Source: Carcharhinus amblyrhynchos (taxonomy: Eukaryota). Taken from it: a DNA stretch of 64,000 nt. The position numbers were made by a program, and so were the translations under genes. The notes beneath the pieces were generated by a model. The model was not told the origin of the DNA, did not search any database, and saw nothing but the letters and a program-made list of their open reading frames with translations. The stretch covers positions 151,342,001 to 151,406,000 of the forward strand of contig OZ336870.1 in NCBI GenBank assembly GCA_965287045.1, read 5' to 3'. Shown piece after piece: positions 1,954-63,293 of this stretch. Within the stretch, counting starts at the first letter, position 1. Every line of letters begins with the position of its first letter.

Positions 1954-4682
1954 TACCAGTATTTGTGGCACTAATCTTAAATGTGGTTGTGACTAAATTC
2001 AGATGTGTGCAAAAGGGAATCCATACACCTGCAAATGTACAAATATCAGGGAAAAGATGCATAGGAATAGTACAAAAATACAGAGTTCATTTTGATAGAG
2101 AGCAACTGACACGTAGCAGCAACACAAAGCTGCCATTGGCTGCTATTCTTTTATACAAAGAGTAGGAGAGACAACGAGATAATCAGGAAGCGTGGGATTA
2201 AAATGCTGGAAACCCTCCAAGGTTTGGTAACATCTGGGTAAACAATGGTTAGTTTTTTGCGTCGATGATTTTTGATATGTGGCATTCACAATTGATCAGT
2301 ATTGATTTGAAACACTTGAGAAGGAAGAGGTCTCAAGTTTCATGCGCAAATGATGAATAATTGGGGCTCAAAATGTGGCCACAAGTTTGATTGCATCTGT
2401 TGTGTAACTGTCAGGTGAAAGTTGAGTAGAACCTGGTTCCCTGTGATGAGGAAACCAAGGAATTCTGATTGGGATGGGGAGATAATGTAGATATTCTGTC
2501 TGCTTCCCCATCTCATGTTGTTGTCTCTGGAGGAGCTCCTGGGCCACCTTAGAAACTTCTACTCAGTATTCTACTGTTAGGCCAATGGAGCATATCTGTA
2601 GGAGGCTGTGGGGGACAAATCTTGTGCCTTATTGGCTTCCTGCACCATTCAATTTAGACAGAGAGCCATTTCAACATTTGGGGCATGGCCTCTCACAGAT
2701 GCAAATCACCTCATCATGTTCATGATCCCCACCTCTGCAAATTGGGATGGTTCAGTTTACCTGGAAGTCAATGGGCTTAGGAGTCACTCCACCATACTTG
2801 TAGAGCTGGGCCTTCAGAATTGTGACCACTTAGAGTAAGCAAGGATGCTATCACTCCTGGTTTCAGCACAGTGAGAATGCAGCGTAATTTTGGTCATGCT
2901 GGATAACTTGTAAAAAGATTGAAAAGCAATAATTATGCAAAGTGTTTTCCAATTTGTCAGCTGCTTCTGTTTATATGGTCAAATTTTCTTCCTAGCAGCC
3001 ATTAGTCATTAGGATGTTATCCGGCTTGGCATGTACACCAGTCACAGGGAATTCCAGAAGTGGTCAATAATTTAAAACTTTGGCATCTGCTGTGAGTACT
3101 GAAGTTGAGAGAAGATAATGTACCCAGAAAGTCAGCTGTTACTCATGTTTACATTTTACCTGCTACCAATGACATAGACTGGAAGACACGCAGATGCGAT
3201 CATCAGAGTAGGTACAGACTGTTACAAAGCTCGTGGTGAAATAGACAACTGCTACTTAATTTCACATGAAAAATGATGAGTTTGGTTAAAGAAGAGGATG
3301 ACAGGCGACATGTATATCTGTACTCCCAACAATAGGCAGCACTTAAAGCTGTAGGTGAAACAAAATATGTTTTGAAATTAAATGTCCCCGATGCCTTTTT
3401 TTCATAAGAAAAGGTGTTGACGGACCCTAAATTCCTTGGTGACACTGTGGTTGAGTTGGAAAATTTATGCTGTTCACCAGCAGAGGGAGTTACACACAAG
3501 TTTCTTTGGGTAAGTTAATTTAAATATTTTGGTTGCAGCTTTGGTGTAATAAATGCAGTAACGTGTGAGTTTCTGATTTCATGCCACCCTACACCTCTTG
3601 CTATCAACCAGGAAACTGCTGAGCAACAGCATAATCTTTAACAGCGTGCTTTTTGCTTGTTTTGGTGCCATCTATGTCCACTAGACACCACACCAGCAGG
3701 CACAGCTCTTATACATTGCACAAGACAGGAAATGCACAGCCTTAGACCTCTTCTTCCTTAAGGTGGGCATCATCATCAATTGTGCTGACTGCAGAGAGCT
3801 ATTACTGGCACTGCTTCTCAGCTCTCTCTCTCACTCAGCACTGATTGACAATGCAGAAAAAAATGAAAGCAGGAGCAGTAAAGTTATCCTGTCACCAAAC
3901 AGTCCCTTTTCTCAAACCATTACATTCTGTATTTCTGAATGACTCCTTATACACATGTTCATCAGCTTTTATTAAAATAGTGTTAAAATTCACCCTCCAT
4001 TCTATGTCTCTTCCCCCTCCTCCCAAGTCTTTACCCTTATGTTATTAAATACACATCCTCCTGCACCTCCATGCAAAGTCTCTATTTTTAAAAGGGATAC
4101 TATCTTTGGTGGTGTGCAGAGTTTGTTTTGGGGTTGCTTCGGATCTGTTGACTCAACTTATTTCGTCGGAGTGGTCACTTCTTGTTTCCTTTACTAATGA
4201 TTCTGCAGGTGTGACGTCCTGCTGAAGATTCGAGTAGGCAGTCCACCTCATTAATGGTTTCCCATTCATTGAAATCAAGGCATTCCTGTTTCTTCAGATG
4301 ATACTTGGTTCTGTCTGAACCAGGTACCATCTTGGTTGTTGTAACTTCTCCATTGAGGTCCCATCTTACTGCTGGTCACTAATCCCACACTATCTCACTC
4401 TTTCAAGAAATGGAAAGTTATTAGCCTTGTATTATTGGTTGAAAGTGCAGGCTTGACCTGCTCTGTAACTTTATTCCTATTGTCATGACCATAGTTTACT
4501 CCCATGATGTTTGGTAAACATGCAGAATAGAAAAGGCAGTTGTGTTCTTCGCCTCAGTTTACATGGAATGAAACCAGTCTGCAACAGTACAGAGTGATAA
4601 CTGAGCAGTGCTAGCTCAGCGTCTTCATTTTTTTCTGAGGAGATCTTTAATGATCTGTACCACTCTCTCAGCTTCTCCGTTT

Positions 4683-4815: not shown

Positions 4816-5088
4816 AAACATCTGCTCTCTGATGCCTCTGGCAGTGATGAGTGAGAATGTATGTGGTTTTCATGAAAAATATGCTGATAGCCCATCCTAT
4901 TGGCATATATCAATGGTTGATTGGTGGTTCCCTCATTGCTATGTGCATGCTTCTGTGAGAGCTTACAGCCTGTGGAATTTACCTATCATGTAGAGGTCTG
5001 AGGCTCTGTACCTCTGGTGCCTGGGGAGGAGCTACGATAGAAGTTCTTCAACTTCCCAGTGAAAGTGGGCATCTGTCACCTTTAGGAT

Positions 5089-5307
5089 AGTAAAAAGTCT
5101 GACAACACCAGGTTTTAGTCCAACCTATTTATTTGATAATATTCTCACAAGCTTTCGAGGGGACAGCCTCTTCGTCAGGTGACGAAGAGGCTGTCCCCTC
5201 GAAAGCTTGTGAGAATATTATCAAATAAATAGGTTGGACTAAAACCTGGTGTTGTCAGACTTTTTACTGTGTTTACGCCAGTCCAACGCCGGCATACCCA
5301 CATCATG
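5089..5307 (+). mobile_element. Young Penelope-like pLTR-derived insertion: perfect 89-bp inverted repeat plus 3' tail, with hammerhead core
   Basis: Arms 5089-5177 and 5180-5268 are exact reverse complements around a GG spacer. An unpaired tail spans 5269-5307. A direct repeat ACCTTTAGGATA at 5078-5089 and 5308-5319 forms the TSD. The element contains CTGACGA-A-stem-GAAAGCTT and AATAAA. Confidence 0.85.
5145..5182 (-). ncRNA. Minimal type I hammerhead ribozyme motif (Penelope-type)
   Basis: The minus strand reads UCAC-CUGACGA-A-GAGG-cugucc-CCUC-GAAA-GC-U-U-GUGA. This gives the conserved CUGANGA and GAAA core, helix II GAGG/CCUC, a palindromic AGCU helix III and helix I UCAC/GUGA. Activity is not demonstrated. 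Confidence 0.7.
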
Positions 5308-5388
5308 ACCTTTAGGATACCCAGTCTAGTTAAGTTGCACCAATCCCCTGTGTCAGCTTGGACAGAAACAACTCAGTCAAACATGAGA

Positions 5389-5477
5389 TAAAAACAGAAG
5401 ATGCTGGAAAAATTCAGGAGGTCTGGCAGCATCTGAAAAACTGAGTTAACATTTTGAGTCCAATATGAGTCTTCAGT
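5389..5477 (-). mobile_element. Fragment of a second Penelope-like pLTR family
   Basis: aaaaacagaagatgctggaaaaattcaggaggtctggcagcatctg...gagttaacattttgagtcc matches the arms at 7815-8054 and 63130-63293. Confidence 0.6.
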
Positions 5478-6423
5478 CAAACATGAGGGCTGTTGGCTAC
5501 TTTAATGGCAACAGAGGAGATGTTAGAGGAGCAAGTGTGCGAATTGTTGTGATGAAGTTGAAGATGTCCAACATCATCCTTCAAGTGATATAGCCACCAG
5601 ATACTTCTTGGAGAAGTCTTCTTCGGATCTGTATGACTTGTACACGAGTGACATCTGGAGAGTTGCTATCCAAAGTCATGTTGCCTGATTTTCAGCACGG
5701 TTGCATGTCCAAGCAGAGAAGAACAGGTGCATATCAAGTTTTGTGAATTGATTTGAAGTTATCTTCAATGGCACTATGGCTATATGATTAAAGATTGATA
5801 ATTCCTTTTTTGACATGAGGTTGGTGAGCATTCCAGACTTTGTGGCTGATTTTGTTGGTGCTTTTCACTTTCACCTGCGCTCGACAGATGACTGGCGTAT
5901 TGTTCTGACACTCTGGCAAGTTCATTCACTTCTTTTCAGACATTCAAAGAGACAGATGCTCAGGATGTAGCATATATTTCCCTCTCTCATCCCCCTTCCC
6001 CTCTGTCTCGGGTGTGTAGATATGATGTATTTGTCATCAGTCAATCTGAAGATTTACTGTTAGAGCTTGTGTTCGCCCAGATGGGTTGTAATACTTTCAA
6101 AAAAAAATTCTTCTTACAGCTTAAACATCACCTTCAAAGAATGTCAGGTTCCTAGGGTCAGCTTACAACTCCTAGGTTCTCACATGCTGATGGATTCTCC
6201 ATGTTTTTGAAAAGGATGATCAACTAAACTGATTTTCAGGGGAACCTGGTTATCAATTTAAACCTCAATACATAGTGGCTTAAGTGATTTTACACACTAC
6301 ACTGTCCTTAAGTCTGGGATTCAAATTTAAATGTAACTTTATTTATTGGTGAGACAATGTAATGGTTGGAGTGAGGAGTTCACAACAAGAACCTTAATTG
6401 TGGTCAGTGGAAAGATGCCATCA

Positions 6424-6494
6424 GACCAACTGAGTTTCTCCAGCATTTTCTGTTCCTGTTTTGGAATCCAGCATCCACGGTATTTTGCTTTTAC
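6424..6494 (+). mobile_element. 3' fragment and tail of the second Penelope-like family
   Basis: ctgagtttctccagcattttctgttcctgttttggaatccagcatccacggtattttgctttta is the reverse complement of the motif at 63130-63185. Confidence 0.55.
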
Positions 6495-6511
6495 ATTGAC
6501 AAGAACTCCTG

Positions 6512-6609
6512 CTCACCTGACGAAGGGGCAGCGCTCTGAAAGCTAATGGCTTTTGCTACGAAATAAACCTGTTGGACTTTAACCTGGCGTTGTGACACTT
6601 CTTACTGTA
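6512..6609 (+). mobile_element. Solo Penelope-like pLTR fragment with hammerhead core (relative of the 5089 and 11801 family)
   Basis: ctcacCTGACGAaggggcagcgctctGAAAgcta...aaataaacctgttggactttaacctggcgttgtgacacttcttactgt is homologous to one arm of the palindromes but is not itself inverted. Confidence 0.75.
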
Positions 6610-6740
6610 TTCAAATTTGAAACCCTATTGACAGGTTGAAAGTTGCTTTTCTCTTTGTGGATATATATTTGAAGTGTGCCTGAACAATGTCAATTTATTT
6701 TCTTGTGATATTGGTTCACAGTACAAAGTTGCTCCTAATT

Positions 6741-7058
6741 TAGAATCATAGAATTCTTACAGTACAGAGAAGGAGGCCATTTCACCCATCGAGCCTGCAC
6801 CCACCAAGGCCCTATCCCTGTAACCCCACACATTTACCCTGCTAATCCCCTGACACTAACAGACAATTTAACACGGCCAATCCACCTAATCCGTGCATCT
6901 TTGGACTGTGGGAGGAAATTGGGGCACCTGGAGGAAACCCATACAGACACGGGAGAACATGCAAATTCCACACAGACAGTGACCCAAGCCATGAATTGAA
7001 CCCGGGTCTCTGGCGCTGTGAGCCAGCAGTGCTAACTATTGTGCCACTGTGCAGCCCC
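6741..7058 (-). mobile_element. HE1-type tRNA-derived shark SINE
   Basis: The minus strand starts gggctgcacagtggcacaatagttagcactgctgg...gggttcaattc (A and B boxes). It has the central gggtttcctccaggtgccc...cctcccacagtccaaagatg domain and a ttctatgattcta tail. Confidence 0.9.
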
Positions 7059-7814
7059 ATTGGCTAGAACTGACTCGACTTCTGGCTCAAATTTTGGTTA
7101 CACTGCCTCATTCCTTTAGGAACATTTGATGACTTCAAGGAAGTTGGAAAAGTTTTAGTAGTTTGGTACTGCACCATAATGAGAGTAAAAATTCACCAAA
7201 ACAGCAATATTGCATGAAAAACAACCACAAAAATACTCTGATGGATATACTTTTGCAGATTATATTTATTTTTGTAGGTTAGTCTGACATTATGGTTTCA
7301 ATGTTATCCTTGGAATACAAAATAGTTCTTGAAACTTGACTAATGTGCTATAAAATTACAATTCAAAAATAATAAAATAATGAGTTATGAAGTACTAAGA
7401 ACGAGATAAAGCTGCACAATCTTGAAAATCTTTTTAAGTTGTGTTTTATGACATTTCCGAAAACTAGCATACACATCCTTGCACATAGATGGATGTGCAG
7501 AGTAATTAAGTGAGATCAATGTTCTATTCTTGCTTGTTGCCAGTTGCAAAAATGAGGCTATTATTTGCACTGTAATTTGAATAAGGAACAAAAATGAATG
7601 TGCGGTGGGGCAAAGTGATTTAAAGATTGACTGTAATCATACAAGTGATGATGACTAAAGCCCCCATATTTTTTTCAAACTTATTGAGGACTCGTGCATT
7701 TTGGGGGATGTATTTTTTAATAAGATTTATACATCATGTTATATCCAGATATACGTAAAGAATTCAATCAAAGCCAAATCAACTGCCTTTCAGGCCAATA
7801 GTTTCCCACATTTT

Positions 7815-8054
7815 AAACAAAAACAGCAAATGTTGGAAAATCTTAGCAGATCTGACAGCATCTGTGGAGAGAGAATAGAGCCAACATTTCAAATCTGGAT
7901 GACCCTTGATCAGAGCCTGTGTGTCAGAGCCTTGGCTTTGATGAAGAATCATCCAGATTCAATGTTGACTCCATTTTCTCTCCACAGATGCTGTCAAACC
8001 TGCTGAGATTTTCCAGAATTTTCAGTTCCCATCATCCACAGTTTTTTGCTTTTA
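7815..8054 (+). mobile_element. Older palindromic Penelope-like insertion (second family)
   Basis: Imperfect inverted arms span about 7828-7915 and 7935-8022, followed by a tail to 8054. The flanking direct repeat is TCCCACATTTTAAA (7804-7817) / TCCCATATTTTAAA (8055-8068). A decayed (C)TGATGAAG core is present. Confidence 0.75.
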
Positions 8055-10681
8055 TCCCATATTTTAAAGTTACTTGACTTGCTTTTTTAAGAGTATTGGT
8101 GTTAATCAAAGATGAAAATACCAACTGTTATTTGTAGAGTAATGCAAATCAAGGAATGCATTTTAATTCAGAGCATGTTTCTAACAGGAAACTGCTATGG
8201 TAACCTTATTCTCTGCATGGCAGAAGCAACAATTTTAACTGGCAAACCTTATTGAAATACCAAATGCCCATTTCCCATCCTAAATGCATGTAAAGAGGGT
8301 GCAGACTAGATGCCAGCAGGTGAAGAATGGATGCCCCTTGGCTACCTGCCAGTAAGCCGTATTGAGGGACGTTTGGAAAGGTCTAAAGAGAAGACGGGGG
8401 CATGAATCCGTGAGAGAACCTTCTATGTTTACCTGAAGGGTCTCCCTGTCTATAGTTCTATCAGGTGGAGGCTATAGGCACCAGTTAAAATGCCATTGAG
8501 GTCCAATGAGTGTCACAAGTACCAAATTAGTATTTATGTGTGAAGTTCCTGCCTGATTTCCGTCTGCAAACTCTTCTGTCACTAAAACCAGCTGGTTAAA
8601 ATTAGCAGGTACGGTGCAGCAAATGGGAATGGTCAATTTACCTCCTTGCCCACTCCGTTTGTGCTGAATGGGGAGAGTAATGCCTCCTTCCCATTGATCA
8701 TTTTCAGCTTGTTCTGAGTAACGAAGGCAGGAGTTTCTATTAATGATACTCCCAGTTTTTTGAGCATTTGAGAACAATGTGATCTTTTCAAGCAAAAAAA
8801 AACAAAGTGGAGTAAATTTGACACTGAAGGGTTGGTTTGTGTTTCAGGTTGACAGAGCTGTACGCAGCAAATAATGAAGGCTGCTATGGGCAGACTGAAA
8901 GGATGCAGATGGCCAAAGCTGATAAAAAGTAATCAAATTGCTATTGTTTTCTTAGATCAGACTCTACTGCCCCTCCAGTCTGTCTTGCCCACCTCAGGAA
9001 CTTAAAACGGAGACTCAGTGAATAATAAACCACAAGAGCTTTCTTTGATAGTTTAAATGGTTTTGTGGTCAGAAAGACTTGCCAACAAATCACATGGATG
9101 AAAATAAGCCTTGTCACAAGTCAAAATGGAAACAAAAGATTTTTTTTAGGAAAAATAAAGTCTATGTTTCTCATTTTTTATTTTCAAGTGAGGATTAGAC
9201 CAATATATTAAATGTAGTATTATTATAGAATTTAAGGAAGCATTGGGCCCTTGTTTGGGTAATGCAGATTGGTTTCTGTCAAGTGTCAAACCTACAGACT
9301 ATAACATCAAGGATATTGAGAAGAGTAGGACCAGATTCCTTTGGCATCAATATCTAGAATAGCTTTCTTCCAAGCAAGCTAGTCTTTGCATCTTCCAGCA
9401 AAGCGCCTTCTGTAAAGAAGAAGGTTTGCATTGTGCTGAAGAAGACGCGCACGTCACATCACTGGACAAAATGTCTCAAAACCAAATGATATGAATCTGA
9501 ATGCAGCTCAACATTTGCGCATGAGACTAATCCTAAAGAAAATAATGTGCTGAAAGCAGAATTCTTTATCCCCAGGGGCTGACTACAGTGATTCAATGGA
9601 GAGTACATGCCAGTCAGTAATTGAATAGCTTGGTTTTGGGGAATAAAAGCTGGGTATATCATCATTCTGTGGTAATTGGCCAGAAACTTGAAACTAAGAC
9701 ATGAAACAGTCTTACCCAATGCTTTACAGAAGCCCTTTCTGTAGCTGAAAAAACACCAAAGTTAGGCAAAGTCTGTTTATGCTGCAACCTTTTAATCTTT
9801 TCGGAGTAGAATCAAAGTGAAATAGGAATTTAGGTTTCTTGTGGCTTTGCCATAAGTTACCAAGTGTGCATGTTATGCACAGTATCAATTTGGGATAAAA
9901 AATGATTTTTCTAGATTTTACTAGTTTCATTCAGTATTACGAGGATTTTGGAGAAGGCCAGATTGTTTTTTTTTCAATTGCATGGACTTTTTTTTATTGC
10001 AAGATGGGGGCTTAAGGTTGATTGTTTAAGAACAATATTAATGGGAAAGAATTAAGAAACGTCGTTGCTAATATATGCCACTAAGCTCGAGTTTTAAAGT
10101 CGGTTTCCACGTAACATGATCTGTACTGAGGAAAAGGCCATTTGGCCCTTTGAGCTTGCTTGCAATTCACTATGATTCCACATTGATATGGATGAGATGG
10201 TGATCGTGCGCTGTGGGTAATCTTGGGGAAGGGTAAGACTATGATTCATTAATGCAGGAAGACCCTGTGTCTGAATAATGTGCTGTAGCATTCCTTCACT
10301 TTAACAGTTGCTCTCATGTAAGAAGAAACTGGCAAGATTGGTTATGTGAGGAGGATATAGAGTCCCTATGATTTTCATCACTGTCTCTGAGCTGTCTCCT
10401 TTTATTTCAACTGAACAAAGGTGGCAAATATGAATGAAAAAGGAAAGAATAATGAGTAAAAGTGCGGCTATTCACAAGCAAGAAAAAGAAACTTGAGTTG
10501 TTTGAAATTGCTTATTTTAAAAAAAAGTTGCACATCATTTTCCATTTATTTTCTAACTCAATGAAAATCCTTTTGGGATGACTATTGAAACAAAACTTGC
10601 TGCTGTTTCAACTGTTTATTTTTGTTCCACACCAATTCACAGTACATTAATCTTTCTGGTTGACTTTTACATTTGTTTTAG

Positions 10682-10831
10682 GTTTCTTCATCCTCCTTAG
10701 TTTCCTCCACTGTTGCCTCCTGCCGCCACACTTCCTTCTTCAGGGTGGGACTTTATGTGCCACGTACTTCATCATGGCCACCATCAATGCCAGTTCATGC
10801 TCCTGCTCGTTTTTCCTTCCCCTGCCCCAAG
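10682..10831 (+). CDS. Candidate internal exon (150 nt) of an unidentified host gene
   Basis: Preceded by a pyrimidine tract ending ...ttttacatttgttttAG and followed by AAG|GTAAAT. The length is divisible by 3 and two frames are open (phase 0: VSSSSLVSSTVASCRHTSFFRVGLYVPRTSSWPPSMPVHAPARFSFPCPK). It lies in non-repetitive sequence. The protein was not recognised. Confidence 0.4.
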
Positions 10832-11800
10832 GTAAATCATTTCACCAGTATAAAAGCATTCTATTTAACTGCTGAGGTGAGAACTCCCAAAAGAGGCTGA
10901 AATAAGGGCTGTTGGAAAGACTGTGGAACCTGGAACTGGATTTCAGGCCTGAGGGTATGGCTGTAAAGTTGTACTTGCGCAACATGATGAGATTATGTTT
11001 CTCTGTACAATAATGGAATGAATGTAATTCAATAGATTGTAGCTCCAGTAGAGAGAGGAAATTTGTCGGTGAAAGTAAAATTCCTAATTAGCCTGAATTC
11101 TGCCCACATTTTGGAAAGTAATACCCTCGAGTGCACCTCTAAAAATTGTGTTATGACATCTTCAGAACTCCACTATGACTTCATACTTTAGCAAAGGCTT
11201 AGTAATAGTCTTCACTCTTTAATTGTTTCATTGTGTTACTTTTTACTTGAGCTCAGTGCTCTGGTTATAGCTCAGTTGGAGATGCATGTAAACAAAGTGT
11301 AGATACTTTGGAGTATTCCATGGGTTCGGCCTCTGTCGTTGATAACATATTTCAGGAATTTGAAGGTTTGATTCTTGGAAACATCATTCATATTCAGCAA
11401 ACAATATATTCATACAAGAGAGAATAATCTGCTAATGCCTCTTAGTCACACGTGAATTGAAAAGCAATGGTAGATTAATATTGATCATTTCCAACTGTAC
11501 CAAAGAATACTTACACCTGCAATTTTGGACTTCAGAGTAGGAAGAGACAGGTAAGATCACTATGCTTGCTATGACTTTAAACAGTGAATAAAAGAAGAGC
11601 AGTATACTTTTTAATATAGTTGGATTGAGGTCTGGTTAAATTATATTTTCCCATATCACTAATAGTTCACTAACCTCCTTCAGGGAAGGAAATCTGCTGT
11701 CCTTACCTGGTCTGGCCTACATGTGATTCCAGAGCCGCAGCAATGTGGTTGACTCTCAACTGCCCTCCAAGGGCAACTAGGGATGGGCAATAAATGCTGG

Positions 11801-12003
11801 TGTGGGTATGCCGGCGTTGGACTGGCGTAAACACAGTAAAAAGTCTGACAACACCAGGTTTTAGTCCAACCTATTTATTTGATAATATACTCGCAAGCTT
11901 TCGGGTTAGCCCCTTCACCTGACGAAGGGGCTAACCCGAAAGCTTGCGAGTATATTATCAAATAAATAGGTTGGACTAAAACCTGGTGTTGTCAGACATT
12001 TTA
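11801..12003 (-). mobile_element. Young Penelope-like pLTR-derived palindromic insertion (second copy of the 5089 family)
   Basis: The tail spans 11801-11835. Arms 11836-11916 and 11924-12004 have one mismatch around a 7-nt spacer. The 13-bp TSD CAATAAATGCTGG lies at 11788-11800 and 12004-12016. Confidence 0.85.
11915..11949 (+). ncRNA. Minimal hammerhead ribozyme motif (Penelope-type)
   Basis: Reads UCAC-CUGACGA-A-GGG-gcuaa-CCC-GAAA-GC-U-U-GCGA. The core is intact, helix II is GGG/CCC, and helix I has one mismatch. Confidence 0.65.
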
Positions 12004-15000
12004 CAATAAATGCTGGCCCAGCCAGCGATGCCCATGTCCCACAAATTAATAAAAATATATTTATTAATTGCTGAATTTATGTTTGCCTCCCAATTCAGAC
12101 ATACCACTTCAGGTTTAATAAAATCGCAACTTGAACACTGCAACAAGTCAGAGAAGGTTAATATTGAAATGATTACAGTGCTAATCAATACGGGGTTAAA
12201 CTATCATATCCATTACATAAGGCTTCTTGTTGGTCTTTAGCTTGACAGCGTACTCATAACCAGCGATCCTTTTAAGCATTATGTGTTAAAACTTCAATGT
12301 GCCAGATTGGGCATCCCCTCCAGTTGACTTGACCATAGTTGCTTAATGATTTCCATATCCTGTTTCCCAGAAAAAGAATTAGCCAAAGAAGCCTCCCTCT
12401 CACAGACGCTCCCATCCTTTCAGAAGATATTCATAGCAGAGCCAACACAGAATTTGAAATAGATGATCTCCTGTTATCAAAAGCAAGAATGTTTTCCTGC
12501 TGAACAAGAAACCATAGGTTTTCACTCCAGTTTCTTCATTATATCCAAGAAATTGAGAAATATTTGCCCATTTTCAAATCAAAGGAAATGGAGTCAGTTC
12601 CTATGTTGAGACTTATATTTCTAAGAACGATGGTTTGTGTAATGCAAAACATGATTTTCCTACTGCTGGACAGATTTTTGGTGTTCTGGGCTCTCAATCC
12701 CCCCACCCCTTGCGAAAGATTCATATCTCACAACTTAGGTTACATATATGTATAATCAGACTAATGTCAATGGCCATCTTCATTGTTTCCAATTCTGTCT
12801 TTTATAGTGAAGCATTTCAGTTGAATCTGCTGACACATTTACTTTGGCCTGTCTAGTAGTATAGATAGTCATATGTATTAAGAGTTCCTCTTCAGCTGAT
12901 TTCCCAAAATGAGGATGACGGTGGAAGTGTTGCTACTGGCTTGGAAAGCTCATCTCTGAAACAAGTGCCATTGAAGATGTTTGACGGCCTAATTTCACAG
13001 AATTGCCAGTGTTGTGTGCATAAGAAAACTGAAACGTCGTTCCAAGCCTTAAGCCGAGAGAGTTAATCAGTACCAATACACTAGAAAAAACTGGGCTGAG
13101 CAGAAAGGACATTAAAGCTGGAACAAGATGTTGATGGCACAAAAAATAAGAAATAAACCTATAAGTGAGATAAATGAAGAACAAATGTCATACTCAAGGA
13201 CATGATATAGTGGGAAGACAGCAAAATATATGTCCAGAGAAAAGAAGAAAGTAACGTCAATCAAATTGATCAATTTAAATAAAATCAGAATCTGTAAGGA
13301 ATCAAAAATATACTTATCAAATATTGAGAGCTTTAGACCAATTTGTTGGAATTTTTTTTAATTAAATTTTCCTTTTTGAAGAATTGACTGGGGAAATTAT
13401 AGTTTTACCAGCAAGTATCATAACATTTTATTGTTCTGATTACTCAGGAACTGAAGCTTTGTAAATTTACTGCTATTTTTTATAAAACAAAATGTAGGGT
13501 TGTGCCAATGTGAATTTTATATTTTGTTACCAAAAATAAAAAGGCTTATACTGGCCATTCAACAATGTTGCATGCCAAATTCCTTTTGGGAAGTTTATTT
13601 TTAAATCATGGGCAACTTTACTTTCTAACGTATTTCTGACTGTCAAGCCTCATTAGCAATCTGTGAGTCCACATATGGTTAGTGTACGCTGTTACTGCTT
13701 GGTGCATATTTTCTTCTCTGCAGGTCACCTGTCTATCAGGCATTGGTATGTGTGACTACTAAAATAAGGCACCTATGGGGAAAATCAGCTTAGAACTGCT
13801 TTTTTTAAAACTGAAATGTTTCTCTTTGATTTTCATTGTTGAGTTTAAATATCCTCTGTGAATTTCAGAATGTGATTTTTTTTTTGGCTGGAATAGAATT
13901 AACTTGCACAGAGATTTTGTGAATGTCTTCTCCTAAGGAACAAGGTTCATGATGGGATGAAGGATTCTTCTGTAAGGTTCCCATGTGAAGTGTGTTGGTC
14001 AGTTTCACCTTTAGCTGCTCGAGGCGTAAAGCTGTTCTAACTTGGGACTCTTGGCGCTAAAGCACACTCATGAGATCACGTGGGCAGGCAGTGTAGGAAA
14101 TGAAAGTGCAGTAGAAAGTGTTCTTCTGGGCTTGTTGGATTTAAGAGATATTACTGAAGGATATAGAGGGAGCATTGAATCACATCTGCCCTGCGCAATC
14201 TTTGATCTGGATGTACTTCTTCCTGCACAAAACCTGACCAAGAGGTCCAACTGTAATCCATATAATAATGCTGAGAGTCAGAGGAACATTTTGTAAGGAA
14301 GGCTAAAATCCCAAAGTGCCATTCTTAGCTTTGTTTGCATATCATCCAGTCACTTCCGTCACATATTTGCTGAGCAATACTTATTCAGGTTACTATGCTT
14401 TTGAAATATATTTTAAACTATCAAACCTTGGCATTGCGGGATTGATCATGATGAACAACTATTGTACTGATTGTATCGAACCTTATTTTCAAAAAAGACA
14501 ATACAGGCGCATTGAACTGTTAACATGTGATTCATGAAGCTTAGGGATAGAGATTTGATCATTTCCTTTCAATCAGACACTTGTCTGAACAGTGGTGTTG
14601 AGGAGGGCCATGTTCCTCATTGTGAGGGTAAATAATCATAGAAAGTGAGTCATTGCTCACTGCAAGTCCTGTTCTGCCTAAGTATGTGACTGGGTCACCC
14701 CCTTGGCTACGCAAAGAGGGAAGAGAGACAGATTTTGTTTGCACTCTCTCTCAAAAAAAAGACAAGGGATGTTTCTGCGAGGTAATGATATTGGAATTAG
14801 TAACAATGTATGGTAACAAAATGTAATGTAGTTAAGCAGTTACATGGAGAAACCACAGTGGGTATAATTGTGATTAAAGGTCTCTGTGTTATTTAATGTT
14901 GGGATAGTGGCAAGTAAAGCTCCGTCTAATATTTATATTTGGCAAAGGAGTAACTTGCTTCTAACTTGTAAATTCTTGTTGCAAAATTCAGTCTTAAGTT

Positions 15001-18039: not shown

Positions 18040-18368
18040 TGACACAGAGGTACAGTGGCTTGCATTGCTGCCTCGCACGGCCAGGGACCAGGATTCAATG
18101 CTGGGTGATTGTCTGTGTGGAGTTTGAACATTCTCCCTGTGTTTGCATGGATTTCCTCCAGGTGCTCCGGTTTCCTCCCACAGTCCAAAGATGTGCAGGT
18201 TAGGTAGATTGGCCCTGGTAAAATTGTTCTTTAGTGTCCCAAGATATTTAGATTAGATGTATTAGCCATGGTAAATACGTTATGGGGACAAGGTGGTGGA
18301 GAGGGCCTGGATAGGATACTCTGTCAGAGAGTCGGTGCAGACTTCTGCACTGGAGAGATTCGATGATT
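18040..18368 (+). mobile_element. HE1-type shark SINE
   Basis: ggtacagtggcttgcattgctgcctcgcacggccagggaccaggattcaat...gtctgtgtggagtttgaacattctccctgtg...ggtttcctcccacagtccaaagatgtgcaggttagg...ttctgcactggagagattcgatgatt. Confidence 0.9.
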
Positions 18369-21075: not shown

Positions 21076-21415
21076 AAGAGAGACACGTTGCTGAAGCTTT
21101 TTGTCCCACACTCATCAGGACAAACACAGGAATGCCAAGTTTTAGACAATCACAATAATTCACAGAAAAGAGGAGGGGTGCTGTTGGTCGACCATGATTG
21201 GCAAGGCAAAGCAATGAGGAGGCAAGTCTTATAGTTCCCCATTGTTTTCTCCATGGCAATGCCTCAGCCATTGTCGACCAGACAGCACCCCTCTTCTCGC
21301 ATGAATTATTGTGATCGTTTAAAACTTGGCATTCTTGTGTTTGCCCTGATGAATATAAGACAGAAAGCTTTGACAGCATGTCTCTCTTTTCAAGTTCCAT
21401 ATTACCAAATAACTT
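21076..21415 (+). mobile_element. Palindromic Penelope-like insertion (third family)
   Basis: Imperfect inverted arms span about 21076-21207 and 21260-21388; the + and - ORFs here share the peptide SSGQTQECQVL. The right arm contains cCTGATGAatataagacaGAAAgcttt, a hammerhead-like core, followed by a short tail. Confidence 0.7.
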
Positions 21416-29387: not shown

Positions 29388-29713
29388 GGGTGTACGGTGG
29401 CACAGTGGCTAGCACTGATGCCTCGTAGTGCCTGGGAGCCAGGTTCAATTCCAGCCTCGGGTCACTGACTCTAGAGTTTGCGTGTTCTCCCTGTGCCTGT
29501 GTGGGTTTCCTCTGGGTGCTCTGGTTTCCTCCCACAGTTTAGCGATGTGCTGGTTAGGTTAATTGGCCATGGTAAACAGTCCTTCAGTGTTGGGGGAGTA
29601 GCAGGGTAATTACCTGGGGCTATGGGCATAGGGCCTGGGTGGGACTGTTATTGGTACAGACTCGATGTGCCAAATGACCTCCTTTTGCATCGTAGAGATT
29701 CTACGATTTTTCT
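29388..29713 (+). mobile_element. HE1-type shark SINE
   Basis: gggtgtacggtggcacagtggctagcactgatgcctc...aggttcaattcc...gtgggtttcctctgggtgctctggtttcctcccacag...cagactcgatgtgccaaatgacctccttttgcatcgtagagattctacgatt. Confidence 0.9.
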
Positions 29714-30735
29714 AAGTTCTGTGTCAACATCAAAGTCTCTCAGTACATTCCCTTTCATGCTTTCTGGAGCACAACTCTACTCTTCTGGCCAACAAGGTGG
29801 TCCACCATCTGTTTCAGGACCTGTGCCTGATCAAAAACATCTTACTGGGGTGACAATACATAGCCCTGCTTTTTAAATGAAAACATTTCAAAACTTCACA
29901 ACATGGTAACAAAAAGAGTTAACGGAATTTATTTTAAAAAATGACTGATTAATTGGGTTTGGAAGTTTTTTGGAAAGAAGCAACTCACCAGTTTCCAAAC
30001 CACAAGAAACCCTATGCACTCCTTCAGTCTCTCAGCAGGTAGTCAGCTCTTAGCCTCTTAAAATGTTCAGAGCTAAAAGCCAACATAAATCTGCTAAGCA
30101 CATTTGAAATGCTCTTGAAAACCTATATTCCTAATGGTGAGTACTGGGACCAAATAACGTTCCACAAATTGTTTTTTATATCCCATTTGGAATATCAATA
30201 ATGTTGTGCAGTGCGTTTGGTTGCCAGGCAGGTCTTCCGTGAGAAAGTCTGATACATGAAGCATGGGTCTCTCTGTCTGCCAGCGAATCTCTAATGCCCA
30301 TGCATAAACTGCGTAGCCCTCGTATCTGCTCATGTCTATCTTGGTTCTGCAAAAGTGAAAGAAAACATTTCACTGGTCTTGTTGAGTTTGGGAACTTACT
30401 GAGTTACAGTTGGTAATTATGTTAGTTTTTTTACTCAACTGAAAGGACTCCGGAAATTCATATTCATTTGTGCAGTAACTTTTGTTGCTATATTGATGTG
30501 CAGCTAATGATAAAGCTTCAAAGGAAAACTAATGAATAAATAGATTAAAAAGCAAATGTTAGAAACTGAGCTCAGTTCCCAAATTTTCAGTAGCATGGCA
30601 GTTAATTTAGTGACCATAATGGCAAAGGAATACAGACACAACTTGACAGCCAGTTCATCCATACAAATGGCATTTCTGCCTAGATTGAGTGAACAGCCAT
30701 GTCAAATGCTGTGCATTGAAACAGTAGCCAATCTT

Positions 30736-30812
30736 AATTTGTTCAGGGGGTGTGGGCATCGCTGGCTGGGCAAGCATTTATTGCCCATCCTTAATTGTCC
30801 TTGAATTGAGTG
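30736..30812 (-). mobile_element. Short LINE/SINE 3' tail fragment
   Basis: gtgtgggcatcgctggctgggcaagcatttattgcccatccttaattgtccttga is the reverse complement of the uninterrupted tail seen at 11770-11800 plus 12017-12040. Confidence 0.7.
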
Positions 30813-42218: not shown

Positions 42219-42322
42219 AGAATGTGCAAACTCCACACAGACAGTGACTCGAGCTGGGAATTGAACCCCGGTCCCTGGAGCTGTGAAGCAGCAGTGCTAA
42301 ACACTGTGCTACTGTGCCACCC
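42219..42322 (-). mobile_element. HE1-type SINE 5' fragment
   Basis: aatgtgcaaactccacacagacagtgactcgagctgggaattgaaccccggtccctggagctgtgaagcagcagtgctaaacactgtgctactgtgccaccc. Confidence 0.85.
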
Positions 42323-42464
42323 TGTTCCTATAGTGAGGTTTTTCCATCAACAGGTCACCAGCCTGTCGCAAGAGGCTTATAGCTTGAGGGACAACACTCC
42401 ACGTCAAGCATGTTGACCGCCTGACTCTTCTGCTCTTATTGCCTGACATTGGCATGTTGGAAGG

Positions 42465-49440: not shown

Positions 49441-51870
49441 TTCTGTGTTGAAATCATTTGGATGTGGTGGGTAGACCAGTATTGTGTCTATCTATTTCGA
49501 TTTGAATGGGCATTGGCAGGCATGCCACAAACTACATGCCCTCAAAACTTTATGCCTGGGTCTTCAAGAGAGATGAGGAAAGTGCAAAAATTGGAAGATG
49601 TGCCAAAATTCTGCAGTATAGCAAACATGACCCTGAATTTCTGTGCTGATCACCTCCTTCAGTGCTTTCCACCATTTCTGAGTTTTCTCTGAAATCTTTT
49701 GCTAAAGTTAATGACAGATGATTGGATGAACTCCTGTGGAAGTTCAGAGCCCATGCATTTCCATTTCATAGTACAAAAGTGGACAACACGGAAAATGATG
49801 TTAACACAAAGACAACACTTGGTACAAAGTCTGGGTGAAAAGCTACTTTGTTAATTGGGTTACGAAGACAAGAATGAAATAGTATGTCTGAGTTTCACTA
49901 TTACTGTGCATCCTCATGACCAATATCTCACACCAGTTTGCTGAGGTTCAGTGTGTCTATTGGATAGTTTAAACACAGCTTTTAAGTGTTAAAATTTTGG
50001 TTAAGTAAGAGATAAAATATCTGGGAAGTTGTAAGCATCGATCAAAGAATCAGGGACATAACATTTTAACCCTATCTTTAACCCACGTTCTGGCATCATA
50101 TTAGGTCAACAGTATAACAAAACTATTGTCCATGGTGTCAGTAGACCGTCATCATTATTCTACATTCATAAAATCAAATGATAGGTATGTTTGATTATTA
50201 TAATTCGCATTGAGCATACCAAACTTTTATTTTGTTTATTGAGATAATGCTGACAACTGCATGAAACTCCTCGATGGCACTGTTAAGTGCAGATTCTCTG
50301 GTGTTCATGGAAATTTAGGTTTGCTTCACTGAAGTTTTAAATCAGTTAAAGAAGGCATTCAATTGGAAACATGTACAGCTCTGAAGATATCTTTGGAACA
50401 GTACCATAGCAGCTGTGTTGTAAATGGAAATATATTAAATGTGAAGATTCATATCACATTGCGGTACCTCGTCGAACAAAATAATACTGAACAAAATAAA
50501 TATCTGCACGCAGGTATGGAAGTAATAGGATATCACAGCAGATGTTACCTATTAAGACTTATACTTGGGGAAGTTGGGCTCCTGGTCAGAATTAATTATT
50601 CAGTTATGTAATTGGAATTTCAAATACAGAACTGCTCAGATTTTATGGACAGTGACAAAGCAATTAATAAACAGTGCGCACAAGCAATTTCTGTGGTGTG
50701 AGTTCCATCTTTGCCAGTGTCAGTTTGAATCAGTGACCAAGTCAGGGGGATCTCCAGATGTCCAGCAACTTTGATATCATTAGGCAGGGTAAGCAGACAA
50801 TCACATTAAAGTATTCTCATAGGTAACAGACCAGAAAGTAAAATTACAGAGCATAAAATAAACGTTGGAACACATGGGATTAAATTAGAAGCTAAAATAT
50901 AATAAGCAAACTTTGTTCCTGAAATAAAAATGTGAATTTTTTTAACATCATTAAGAAATTTGATAGTCCACAAATATAAAATTAATTTTCCAGAGTAGGT
51001 GAGGTTTTTCAGCAGTAATTATGAACTTAGGTTGTTGTTAAAGATCCAGTTGCATTTCATTTAACAAGATATAACTTTTTCAAGGGTTTTAACACTACAC
51101 TAATATGTAAAAGGCAAATTCTCATCTGTTCGCTGGTTTCTACTAATTACAGGATAAGGGGACTTTAACAGCATCCTATTGCGAAGCACAGAATCGCTGA
51201 CAGCAGTTTCTGGATTTCAGCATTTAACTGAACATATGTAGATTCCGGACAGTCAGTTGATGCTGTCAGTTTCAGACAAGTAATGATAGTTAACTCGGAT
51301 AGTTTTGCTGTCATTTTGCTGTAAATTCCAGACCAAATACTTCTTTCCCCTCATAAAACCCATCTTGCCATTTAATACTGTATGTTTTTTAAAATACGTG
51401 CTATATGTTTGCCTTGAGTGACAGTGCAAACTGGACAATAGAGCATTGGCAGTCTGTATTAGACACTGCCTAGGTTTCTTTTCCATTGTGGACCTTAGAA
51501 CGCTTTTTATTGTTCAAGATAAATTTTATCTCAAATCTATTCTACTTGGTTACCTGTCTTAAACCCATTTTGCTTCTTTGTACTGTTAACCCTCTTGTCT
51601 CTGATCTATCATTCATCTAGCACTTAATTTCTTTATCTTTTATTCAGCATGTATTAGTAACTGACCCATCTCATTGGCCACCATCCACACCCCTTCACTC
51701 AGCACCACCATACCTTATCTGTTATTATGAATGTATGGCAGCAGCAAACAAAAACTCAAGCAGGCAAATTGGTTTCTGCCTTGAGTCCAAAAGAGGCTTG
51801 TTGTGAATCGGCAGCTGATTTTTCACCGTGCCAGTATGTACTGTCCATTGATTTGGAAAATAGGAACCAA

Positions 51871-52182
51871 GGCTGCATGGTGGTACAGTGGTTAGCACTG
51901 CTGCCTCACATAGCCAGGGGCCTGGGTTCGATTCCCAGCTCAGGTCACTATCTGTGTGGAGTCTGCACATTCCTCCCATGTCTGCATGGGTTTCCTCCCG
52001 GGTGCTGCAGTTTTACCTCCCACAATCTGAAAGATATGCTGTTTAGGTACATTGGCCGTGTTAAGTTCTCCCTCAGTGTGCCTGAACAGGCACCGGAATG
52101 TGGTGACTAGGGGATTCTTACAGTAACTTCATTGTGAGTGTTAATGTAAGCCTACTTGTGACACTTATAAATAAATTTTAAA
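51871..52182 (+). mobile_element. HE1-head SINE carrying an alternative 3' tail
   Basis: The first ~205 bp match the other HE1 copies. The 3' part (gactaggggattcttacagtaacttcattg...gtaagcctacttgtgacacttataaataaa) differs from the tails of the 6741, 18040 and 29388 copies. Confidence 0.85.
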
Positions 52183-63127: not shown

Positions 63128-63129
63128 CC

Positions 63130-63293
63130 AAAATACTGTGGATGCTGGAATCTGAAACAAAAACAGAAAATGCTGGAAAACTTCAAAATGAGCTCTCTCG
63201 TGCCCTGAAGAAGAAACGTACGGACTCAAAATGTTAACTCTGCTTTCTTTCCAAGACCTGTTGAGTTGTTGCAGTATTCTCTGTTTTTGTTTC
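63130..63293 (-). mobile_element. Degenerate inverted Penelope-like insertion (second family)
   Basis: The left part aaatactgtggatgctggaatctgaaacaaaaacagaaaatgctggaaaac is inverted relative to the right part ...tgttgagttgttgcagtattctctgtttttgtttc. It contains the decayed core cCTGAAGAAg...ggactcaaaatgttaac. Confidence 0.6.

What the first reader, a model, noticed from the sequence alone, without database searches (positions are those of the whole stretch)
5145..11955. Ribozyme helix II is hypervariable but pairing-preserving between otherwise identical copies
The tail-bearing arms of the 5089 and 11801 copies are identical for about 85 nt from ATATTATCAAAT through the tail. They differ only in and next to the hammerhead: helix II is GAGG-cugucc-CCUC versus GGG-gcuaa-CCC, and the downstream strand is GUGAGA versus GCGAGU. 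The solo copy at 6512 has GGGGC-agc-GCUCU. The cores CUGACGAA and GAAAGCU are invariant in all three. Each variant is mirrored in both arms of its own palindrome, so the second arm was copied from the element's own template at insertion (or homogenised later). This points to several co-active source elements under selection for ribozyme structure, with rapid turnover of helix/loop II.
Basis: partly seen in the sequence, partly recalled or inferred. Interest (0 to 1): 0.7.

Follow-up and report, generated by a model that had tools for sequence, protein, structure and literature searches.

The report
Penelope hammerhead alleles mark source lineages
The two hairpins are ordinary stubs of a very abundant Penelope-type jumping gene whose small ribozyme-like motif carries one stem-loop that differs about ten times more between copies than the rest of the element, and the two halves of some insertions carry different versions, which suggests that one jump likely uses two separate RNA templates.

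Summary
Both palindromes are head-to-head, 5'-truncated ends of one young 3.0-kb Penelope-like element (RT, CX4CX2C linker, GIY-YIG), each inside a 12-13 bp target duplication. The two helix II sequences are lineage alleles, not per-copy variants: 1,564 and 1,668 arms genome-wide, among 21,646 motifs. Helix II/loop II differs 24-27% between copies against about 2% at four-fold sites (ratio 11, CI 7-20). All ten recurrent alleles keep three stem pairs, but only one pair is compensatory (A-U/G-C); most change is in the loop. Corrections: GCGAGU breaks helix I; each tail arm lacks a full core; the 6512 copy belongs to an older family. Variability and compensation in Penelope minimal hammerheads were published in 2014, and this scan has noted such stubs elsewhere in this genome. 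Not found in my five searches: arms have separate 3' priming points (75 of 77 pairs have one tailed arm), and 6 of 49 pairs carry two different recurrent alleles, four inside one clean duplication. That points to two templates per insertion and to recombination between lineages. Cleavage is untested; copy ends are not enriched at the predicted cut. Why the loop turns over so fast is unresolved.

The parts
5078..5089 (.). Target-site duplication, left copy (12 bp, last base shared with the arm)
   Evidence: Repeated at 5308-5319
5089..5182 (-). Tailless arm of insertion 1: 3' end of the Penelope pLTR (unit positions 2895-2988) with a complete minimal hammerhead motif
   Evidence: 100% identical to the full-length natural copy L071; model hit 5141-5186 (the model holds this allele by construction)
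5157..5170 (-). Helix II/loop II allele GAGG-CUGUCC-CCUC (youngest abundant lineage); predicted cut between 5149 and 5148
   Evidence: 1,564 arms genome-wide; cut site inferred from hammerhead numbering, untested
5180..5305 (+). Tail-bearing arm of insertion 1 (unit 2900-3025), core lacks C3; 37-nt tail at 5269-5305
5308..5319 (.). Target-site duplication, right copy
6502..6611 (+). Solo tailless pLTR end of an older Penelope-like family; core 6517-6524, helix II 6525-6537, decayed
   Evidence: 73% identity to the young pLTR; family pattern count 5,516; does not fold as a hammerhead on its own
11788..11800 (.). Target-site duplication, left copy (13 bp), inside a host repeat
   Evidence: Repeated at 12004-12016; the uninterrupted host repeat is at 30731-30803 (I17 and I22)
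11801..11916 (-). Tail-bearing arm of insertion 2; begins inside the core, so no complete hammerhead
11914..12004 (+). Tailless arm of insertion 2 with complete core; helix II allele GGG-GCUAA-CCC at 11927-11937; GCGAGU at 11946-11951 mismatches helix I
   Evidence: 1,668 arms genome-wide
12004..12016 (.). Target-site duplication, right copy

Best explanation
The two palindromes are paired, 5'-truncated ends of a young Neptune-type Penelope-like retrotransposon, and their helix II sequences are alleles shared by thousands of copies; selection on the source RNAs likely keeps the core and first three stem pairs while favouring or tolerating new loops, and template switching between two RNAs used in one insertion likely reshuffles old and new alleles onto nearly identical flanks. 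Shown: family identity, allele counts, 11-fold diversity, kept stem pairs, one tailed and one tailless arm per insertion, arms with different alleles, four-gamete conflicts. Inferred: the endonuclease cuts both strands 12-13 nt apart; each 3' end primes reverse transcription, one at the tail end (unit 3025) and one 37 nt inside (2988); the two products join head to head, mostly over 1-3 nt of microhomology; the two primings usually use RNA of one source locus and sometimes RNA of two lineages. Untested: self-cleavage, RNA dimer formation through the palindromic AGCU of helix III, and the selective agent acting on loop II.
For: RT and GIY-YIG domains, CX4CX2C linker, 3,025-nt unit with pLTRs. 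Allele counts. Helix II 27.4% vs 2.2% four-fold and 2.0% upstream pLTR in 56 insertions picked by a downstream 35-mer; ratio 10.9, bootstrap 7.4-20, and highest of 1,046 windows of 13 nt, next 11.7% (23 long arms). 10 of 10 recurrent alleles keep pairs 1-3, 8 of 10 keep pair 4; private changes break pairs. Position 17 is U or A in 200 of 200 listed arms where the pattern allowed any base. No per-copy hot spot seen: 94 of 100 arms of the youngest background carry the same allele, 2 carry other known alleles, 4 have single changes, 0 indels (counted by eye). 75 of 77 pairs have one tailed arm; the tailless arm reaches further 5' in 33 of 46 pairs that differ by over 10 nt, so it is not a plain copy of the tailed cDNA. 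6 of 49 pairs carry two recurrent alleles; random pairing would give 85% discordance. In 20 further pairs chosen for matching alleles, arms differ at 10 of 526 known polymorphic non-CpG positions against 20 of 8,043 others. Both A-U and G-C types occur on older and younger flank haplotypes and in relatives of 82-89% identity. In vitro, a Poseidon PLE protein cuts and extends both strands from two start sites and is predicted to be a dimer (PMC11167929).
Against: Only one pair is compensatory; on 14 variants the number of pairs changed on both sides is not above shuffles (115 of 500), though cells paired (5 of 500) and cells changed on both sides (1 of 500) are. Private change in helix II is 0.67% against 0.35% in the flanks (p=0.053), so a mild hot spot is possible, and a copying-error hot spot near 0.1% per cycle would be hidden under DNA-level decay. 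A lineage with a 3-bp helix II and a helix I mismatch reached 1,668 arms, so selection for full activity is loose. Copy ends are not enriched at the predicted cut (17 against 75 at a control position). Many pairs end almost symmetrically (8 of 28 deep pairs within 25 nt), which fits fold-back and is not explained by two independent primings. Discordant arms could also come from gene conversion or from two pLTRs of one tandem transcript. Helix II distance counts indels; the flank figures do not (with gaps: 28.3% vs 3.3%).
Confidence: 0.6

Rival explanations
1. Copying-error hot spot: the reverse transcriptase slips or re-templates in the G/C-run hairpin, so source lineages gain helix II changes about ten times faster; only stem-keeping ones survive, with no selection for new loops.
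For: Alleles differ in G and C run length; ten recurrent alleles are linked by 16 small steps; private rate is about twice the flank rate.
Against: 0 indels and only 2 non-CpG single changes in 100 arms of the youngest background; 92 of 100 identical in the 13-nt class (pattern partly constrained); the same alleles recur on different flank haplotypes.
Confidence: 0.25
2. Single template with fold-back: one cDNA turns back and copies itself, so arms mirror each other; rare differences are later gene conversion.
For: 37 of 49 scored pairs carry the same allele; 5' ends cluster near symmetry, several exactly equal deep in the ORF.
Against: The longer arm is usually the tailless one (26 of 32 near-symmetric pairs), which cannot template the tail; four pairs with different recurrent alleles lie inside one 12-bp duplication with 0-3 private differences. 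A mixed model (fold-back plus a second priming) remains open.
Confidence: 0.2
3. Selection acts on the DNA or on silencing, not on the ribozyme: helix II lies 15-28 nt downstream of a predicted transcription start, so new alleles tune the promoter or escape a host repressor or small RNAs.
For: TATA-like TTTATAT at unit 2861 and an initiator-like TCCATT with A at 2893; 5' ends of copies pile up at 2880-2899 (1.7% per nt against 0.3-0.4% on either side).
Against: It does not explain why stem pairs are kept; 5' ends spread over 20 nt; no raw RNA reads were available to map a start.
Confidence: 0.15

Closest known systems
Minimal type I hammerheads (min-HHR) in pLTRs of metazoan Penelope-like elements (Cervera and De la Pena 2014, PMC4209133)
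   Same: [quoted passage not shown]
   Different: There the variability is across consensus families, with helix II of 7-8 bp in Schistosoma; here it is measured inside one family that is otherwise about 98% identical, with a 3-5 bp stem, and it sits in lineage alleles rather than in single copies, which argues against the RNA-to-RNA mutation idea raised there.
EN+ Penelope-like elements of the Neptune/Nematis type (Craig et al. 2021, PMC8557442; Arkhipova et al. 2013, PMC3846280)
   Same: RT then GIY-YIG, CX2-5CXXC linker, partial tandems, inverted 5'-truncated copy, 30-40 bp tail at one end, target duplication.
   Different: Those papers ascribe the inversion to endonuclease resolution or self-priming; the passages I read do not report arms from two lineages. 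Duplications here are mostly 12-13 bp (8-10 bp in the rotifer passages).
PAc (Poseidon_Ac) in vitro system (Frangieh et al. 2024, PMC11167929)
   Same: Two reverse-transcription starts bounding the tail; both strands cut and extended; hammerhead cleavage not needed for insertion; no reads at the cut site.
   Different: Poseidon clade; its ORF starts at stem II, whereas here the ATG follows the tail, so helix II lies upstream of that ATG (lengths 11-14 nt coexist).
Rfam Hammerhead_1 (RF00163)
   Same: Best of three weak hits over the motif, correct place and strand.
   Different: 13.3 bits against a gathering score of 34, E=2.1; no hit in the whole-window scan.
Non-LTR retrozymes (bioRxiv 10.64898/2026.07.22.740005)
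   Same: Type I hammerhead, derived from PLE pLTRs.
   Different: Defined as tandem repeats of hammerhead-bearing units; the window copies are inverted stubs of an autonomous element.

Membership tests
EN+ Penelope-like element | Single ORF with RT followed by GIY-YIG endonuclease | tested here: met
   PF00078 E=3e-10 and PF01541 E=1e-4 in natural frames of L071; the two long copies examined carry stops or frameshifts
EN+ Penelope-like element | pLTRs from partial tandems, inverted 5'-truncated copy | tested here: met
   3,025-nt unit in L071 and L092; 77 inverted pairs
EN+ Penelope-like element | 30-40 bp tail at one end and target-site duplication | tested here: met
   3' ends at 3025 and about 2988; duplications of 12-13 bp in 43 of 77 pairs, none found in 11
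Neptune/Nematis type | CX2-5CXXC linker between RT and EN | tested here: met
   CX4CX2C upstream of the GIY-YIG motif; criterion from PMC8557442
Neptune clade | RT phylogeny places it in Neptune rather than Nematis | not tested
   No reference proteins were fetched
PLE minimal hammerhead | Core CUGANGA/GAAA, extra base before 10.1, G10.1-C11.1, palindromic helix III | tested here: met
   complete in one arm of each window palindrome
PLE minimal hammerhead | Helix I of 4-6 bp closing the cut site | tested here: inconclusive
   Met for GUGAGU/GUGAGA; A.C mismatch in GCGAGU; C.A at the first pair in the solo copy
PLE minimal hammerhead | Self-cleavage after GAAAGCUH, as a dimer or with protein help | not testable with these tools
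   Indirect test negative: no excess of copy ends at the cut
Rfam Hammerhead_1 | Score at or above the gathering threshold | tested here: not met
   13.3 of 34 bits
Non-LTR retrozyme | Head-to-tail tandem of short hammerhead units | tested here: not met
   Window copies are inverted pairs or solo

The most novel reading that the evidence does not exclude
Each Penelope insertion is made by a dimer holding two RNAs paired through the palindromic hammerhead, a retroviral-style dimer signal rather than a cutter; mixed dimers recombine, and loop II is under diversifying selection as a self/non-self tag that sorts source lineages. Helix II alleles then serve as natural barcodes that let the Penelope insertion mechanism be read from thousands of genomic pairs.
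Probability: 0.2. Interest if true: 0.75.

Novelty: new member of a known kind. Interest (0 to 1): 0.42.

Why it matters
How Penelope-like elements make their inverted ends and what their hammerheads do are open questions. This family offers over 20,000 motif copies with about ten natural barcodes at one spot, so template number, recombination and selection on the ribozyme can be tested by counting. If two RNAs are used per insertion, it would tie the dimer-type hammerhead, the two start sites and the inverted structure into one mechanism. The window copies themselves are dead stubs.

Tried and rejected
DNA search of the own genome with 5180-5305 found nothing because common words are skipped; patterns were used instead. 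Rfam scan of the window gave only a hairpin hit to MIR405 and a chance scaRNA hit. Single-strand folding gives the helix I/II shape for the two young alleles but no stability above shuffles (z from -0.96 to +0.87), and the window's second copy and the solo copy do not fold as hammerheads. Idea that cleaved RNA serves as template: rejected for now, 17 arms start at the cut against 75 at a control 3 nt downstream (the chance of passing the two patterns differs, about 0.3 and 0.4; four of the 17, one pair listed twice, are small indels rather than ends). Idea that helix II length is frame-constrained: rejected, lengths 11-14 coexist and the ATG lies after the tail. Per-copy hypermutation: not seen. 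No RNA holder listed; contigs of four runs show a depth dip over helix II and several of the same alleles as loose ends, but contigs cannot show starts or expression. No tree was built because four-gamete conflicts are widespread; R-scape was not available. A words look-up of earlier findings was empty.
Full report
Observation. The tail-bearing arms are identical over 88 nt, each palindrome mirrors its own variant, and both insertions have target duplications of 12 and 13 bp; the second sits in a host repeat whose empty form is at 30731-30803. Three details need correcting. Only the tailless arm of each palindrome has the full core. The GCGAGU strand puts C opposite A in helix I. The 6512 copy is 73% identical to the others and belongs to an older family with heavy CpG decay (5,516 pattern matches).

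What the element is. The window lies in a 2.9-Gb animal genome. A 35-mer of the arm occurs 13,647 times and the hammerhead pattern 21,646 times. Long copies give a 3,025-nt unit: ATG directly after the tail, RT (PF00078), a CX4CX2C linker, GIY-YIG (PF01541) and a 349-nt pLTR. This is an endonuclease-bearing Penelope-like element of the Neptune/Nematis type by the linker criterion of PMC8557442 (passages read); RT phylogeny was not tested. Below, positions are those of the natural copy L071 used as ruler.

Is helix II hypervariable? Yes, but at the level of lineages. The window alleles have 1,564 and 1,668 arms and the 13-nt class, almost all one allele, 1,186. I fetched 173 loci; 207 young-family arms in 130 insertions from L001-L130 and the window were scored, 2 insertions later dropped as segmental duplicates, and the 17 loci picked for ending at the cut site were left out. 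Among 117 insertions covering helix II there are 10 recurrent alleles and 10 singletons. In the 56 insertions picked only by the downstream 35-mer, helix II differs 27.4% pairwise against 2.2% at four-fold sites and 2.0% in the upstream pLTR. For 23 long arms the ratio is 10.9 (bootstrap 7.4-20), and no other of 1,046 windows of 13 nt exceeds 11.7% against 24.4%. Some copies differ by 5-6 edits in helix II and by 1 base in 310-361 nt of flank. Helix II distance includes indels; with gaps counted in the flanks too the figures are 28.3% and 3.3% on a sample enriched for two alleles.

Is pairing preserved? All 10 recurrent alleles keep the first three pairs and 8 keep the fourth; predicted stem energies run from -2.8 to -7.0 kcal/mol. 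The only change on both sides inside the young family is A-U to G-C at 10.2-11.2, with one G.U copy. On 14 aligned variants, one per allele, 93.5% of helix II cells pair; pairs changed on both sides are not above shuffles (115 of 500) while cells so changed are (1 of 500). Private changes do break pairs, and position 17 is never G in 200 listed arms; both fit purifying selection on source RNAs. Against strong selection: the window's second allele has a 3-bp stem and usually the helix I mismatch, yet is as abundant as any; the core is no less diverse than the flanks inside this young family (1.8%), so its invariance is informative only across families.

Why so fast? Neutral drift of a free loop cannot exceed four-fold sites elevenfold. 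A strong per-copy hot spot is not seen: 94 of 100 arms of the youngest background are identical, two carry other known alleles, four have single changes (two at CpG), none an indel (counted by eye); private change is 0.67% against 0.35% in flanks (p=0.053). A copying-error hot spot near 0.1% per cycle would still be hidden, so that rival stands. Recombination is evident: four-gamete conflicts are common among 17 markers, also between helix II and sites on both sides, and A-U and G-C types both occur in relatives of 82-89% identity. My reading is old stem alleles reshuffled onto young backgrounds plus repeated turnover of the loop (16 steps link the ten alleles), with selection on the RNA as the likely filter. 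The agent is unknown.

Where the two arms come from. 75 of 77 inverted pairs have one arm ending at the tail (3025) and one near 2988; junctions overlap by 1-3 nt in 32 of 77. The tailless arm reaches further 5' in 33 of 46 pairs with ends over 10 nt apart (17 of 22 in the unbiased set), so it is not a plain copy of the tailed cDNA, and a tailless cDNA cannot template the tail: two primings are needed. This matches the two start sites and the extension of both strands seen in vitro for PAc (PMC11167929, parts 1-2 of 4 read). Of 49 pairs scored at helix II, 37 agree, 6 have one private allele (three of these, L005, L075, L090, also look like two lineages) and 6 carry two recurrent alleles; L015, L037, L069 and L104 lie inside a clean 12-bp duplication, L062 has a partial one and L107 is a complex tandem. 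Random pairing would agree in 15%. In 20 further long pairs picked for matching alleles, arms differ at 10 of 526 polymorphic non-CpG positions defined on the earlier sample, against 20 of 8,043 other positions (p=7e-6; 7 of 20 pairs); recurrent mutation at such sites is an alternative. Against independence, 8 of 28 deep pairs end within 25 nt of each other; fold-back after a double priming, or two coupled polymerases, could give this. Self-priming was proposed for such palindromes in PMC3846280 (passages read).

Does the ribozyme cut? Untested. Arms do not start preferentially at the predicted cut (17 against 75). They do pile up just 5' of the core (2880-2899, 1.7% per nt against 0.3-0.4%), near a TATA-like and initiator-like pair predicting a start at 2893; both window insertions have their junction in this zone (three of four arm ends at 2894-2900), which would make them run-off products at the RNA's 5' end. 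That step is inference.

Comparison with what is known. PMC4209133 (parts 1-2 of 4 read; supplement file 2 searched, file 1 could not be searched) describes these minimal hammerheads, their extra base, palindromic helix III, opposite-strand pairs, low dimer activity, extreme variability within each genome and compensatory changes. So the headline is known in kind. Five literature searches did not show a within-family measure against four-fold sites or arms from two lineages, but the library lacks most subscription papers and I did not see the supplements of PMC11167929 or of the retrozyme preprint (part 1 of 5 and passages read). Earlier notes of this scan file similar stubs in this genome as ordinary PLE ends, which agrees with what I found before looking.

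Verdict. Real and measurable, a new member of a known kind. The window copies are dead stubs. The interest lies in the alleles as barcodes: they show recombination and point to two templates per insertion. Interest 0.42.

Noticed in passing
window 21076-21388: Inverted pair of 87-nt arms (84% complementary, 139 nt apart) with a decayed hammerhead-like core CTGATGAA...GAAAGCTT at 21346-21370; probably the end of a third, unrelated Penelope-like family.
   Followed up: partly
unit 2880-2899 (window junctions 5178-5182 and 11914-11919): 5' ends of truncated copies pile up just upstream of the hammerhead core, about 30 nt below a TATA-like motif; possible transcription start or polymerase drop-off.
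   Followed up: partly
L043, L045, L091, L156, L163, L168: Both arms of a pair stop within 0-2 nt of the same position deep in the ORF, although they start 37 nt apart; unexplained coupling between arms.
   Followed up: partly
unit 2028, 2146, 2263, 2305, 2474, 2602, 2782, 2832: Several of the sites that segregate among copies and between arms are A/G or T/C outside CpG; adenosine editing of the long hairpin RNAs is one untested source.
   Followed up: no
L140, L141, L024, and the listing: Short AT-rich inserts at arm junctions, resembling pieces of the ATATTAT stretch after the hammerhead.
   Followed up: no
window 7822-8027, 63129-63293, 6423-6487: Short inverted pairs and solo copies of another repeat (AAACAAAAACAGAAAATGCTGGAAAA type), 67- and 33-nt arms.
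   Followed up: no
window 6800-7057, 18104-18222, 29458-29643, 42219-42324, 51868-52079: Copies of one SINE-like repeat family, 75-84% alike.
   Followed up: no
G000 C1 5337807-5521865 (listing); L076/L083; L024/L027: Alternating hammerhead alleles at about 53-kb spacing and identical flanks indicate segmental duplications that inflate raw counts slightly.
   Followed up: partly
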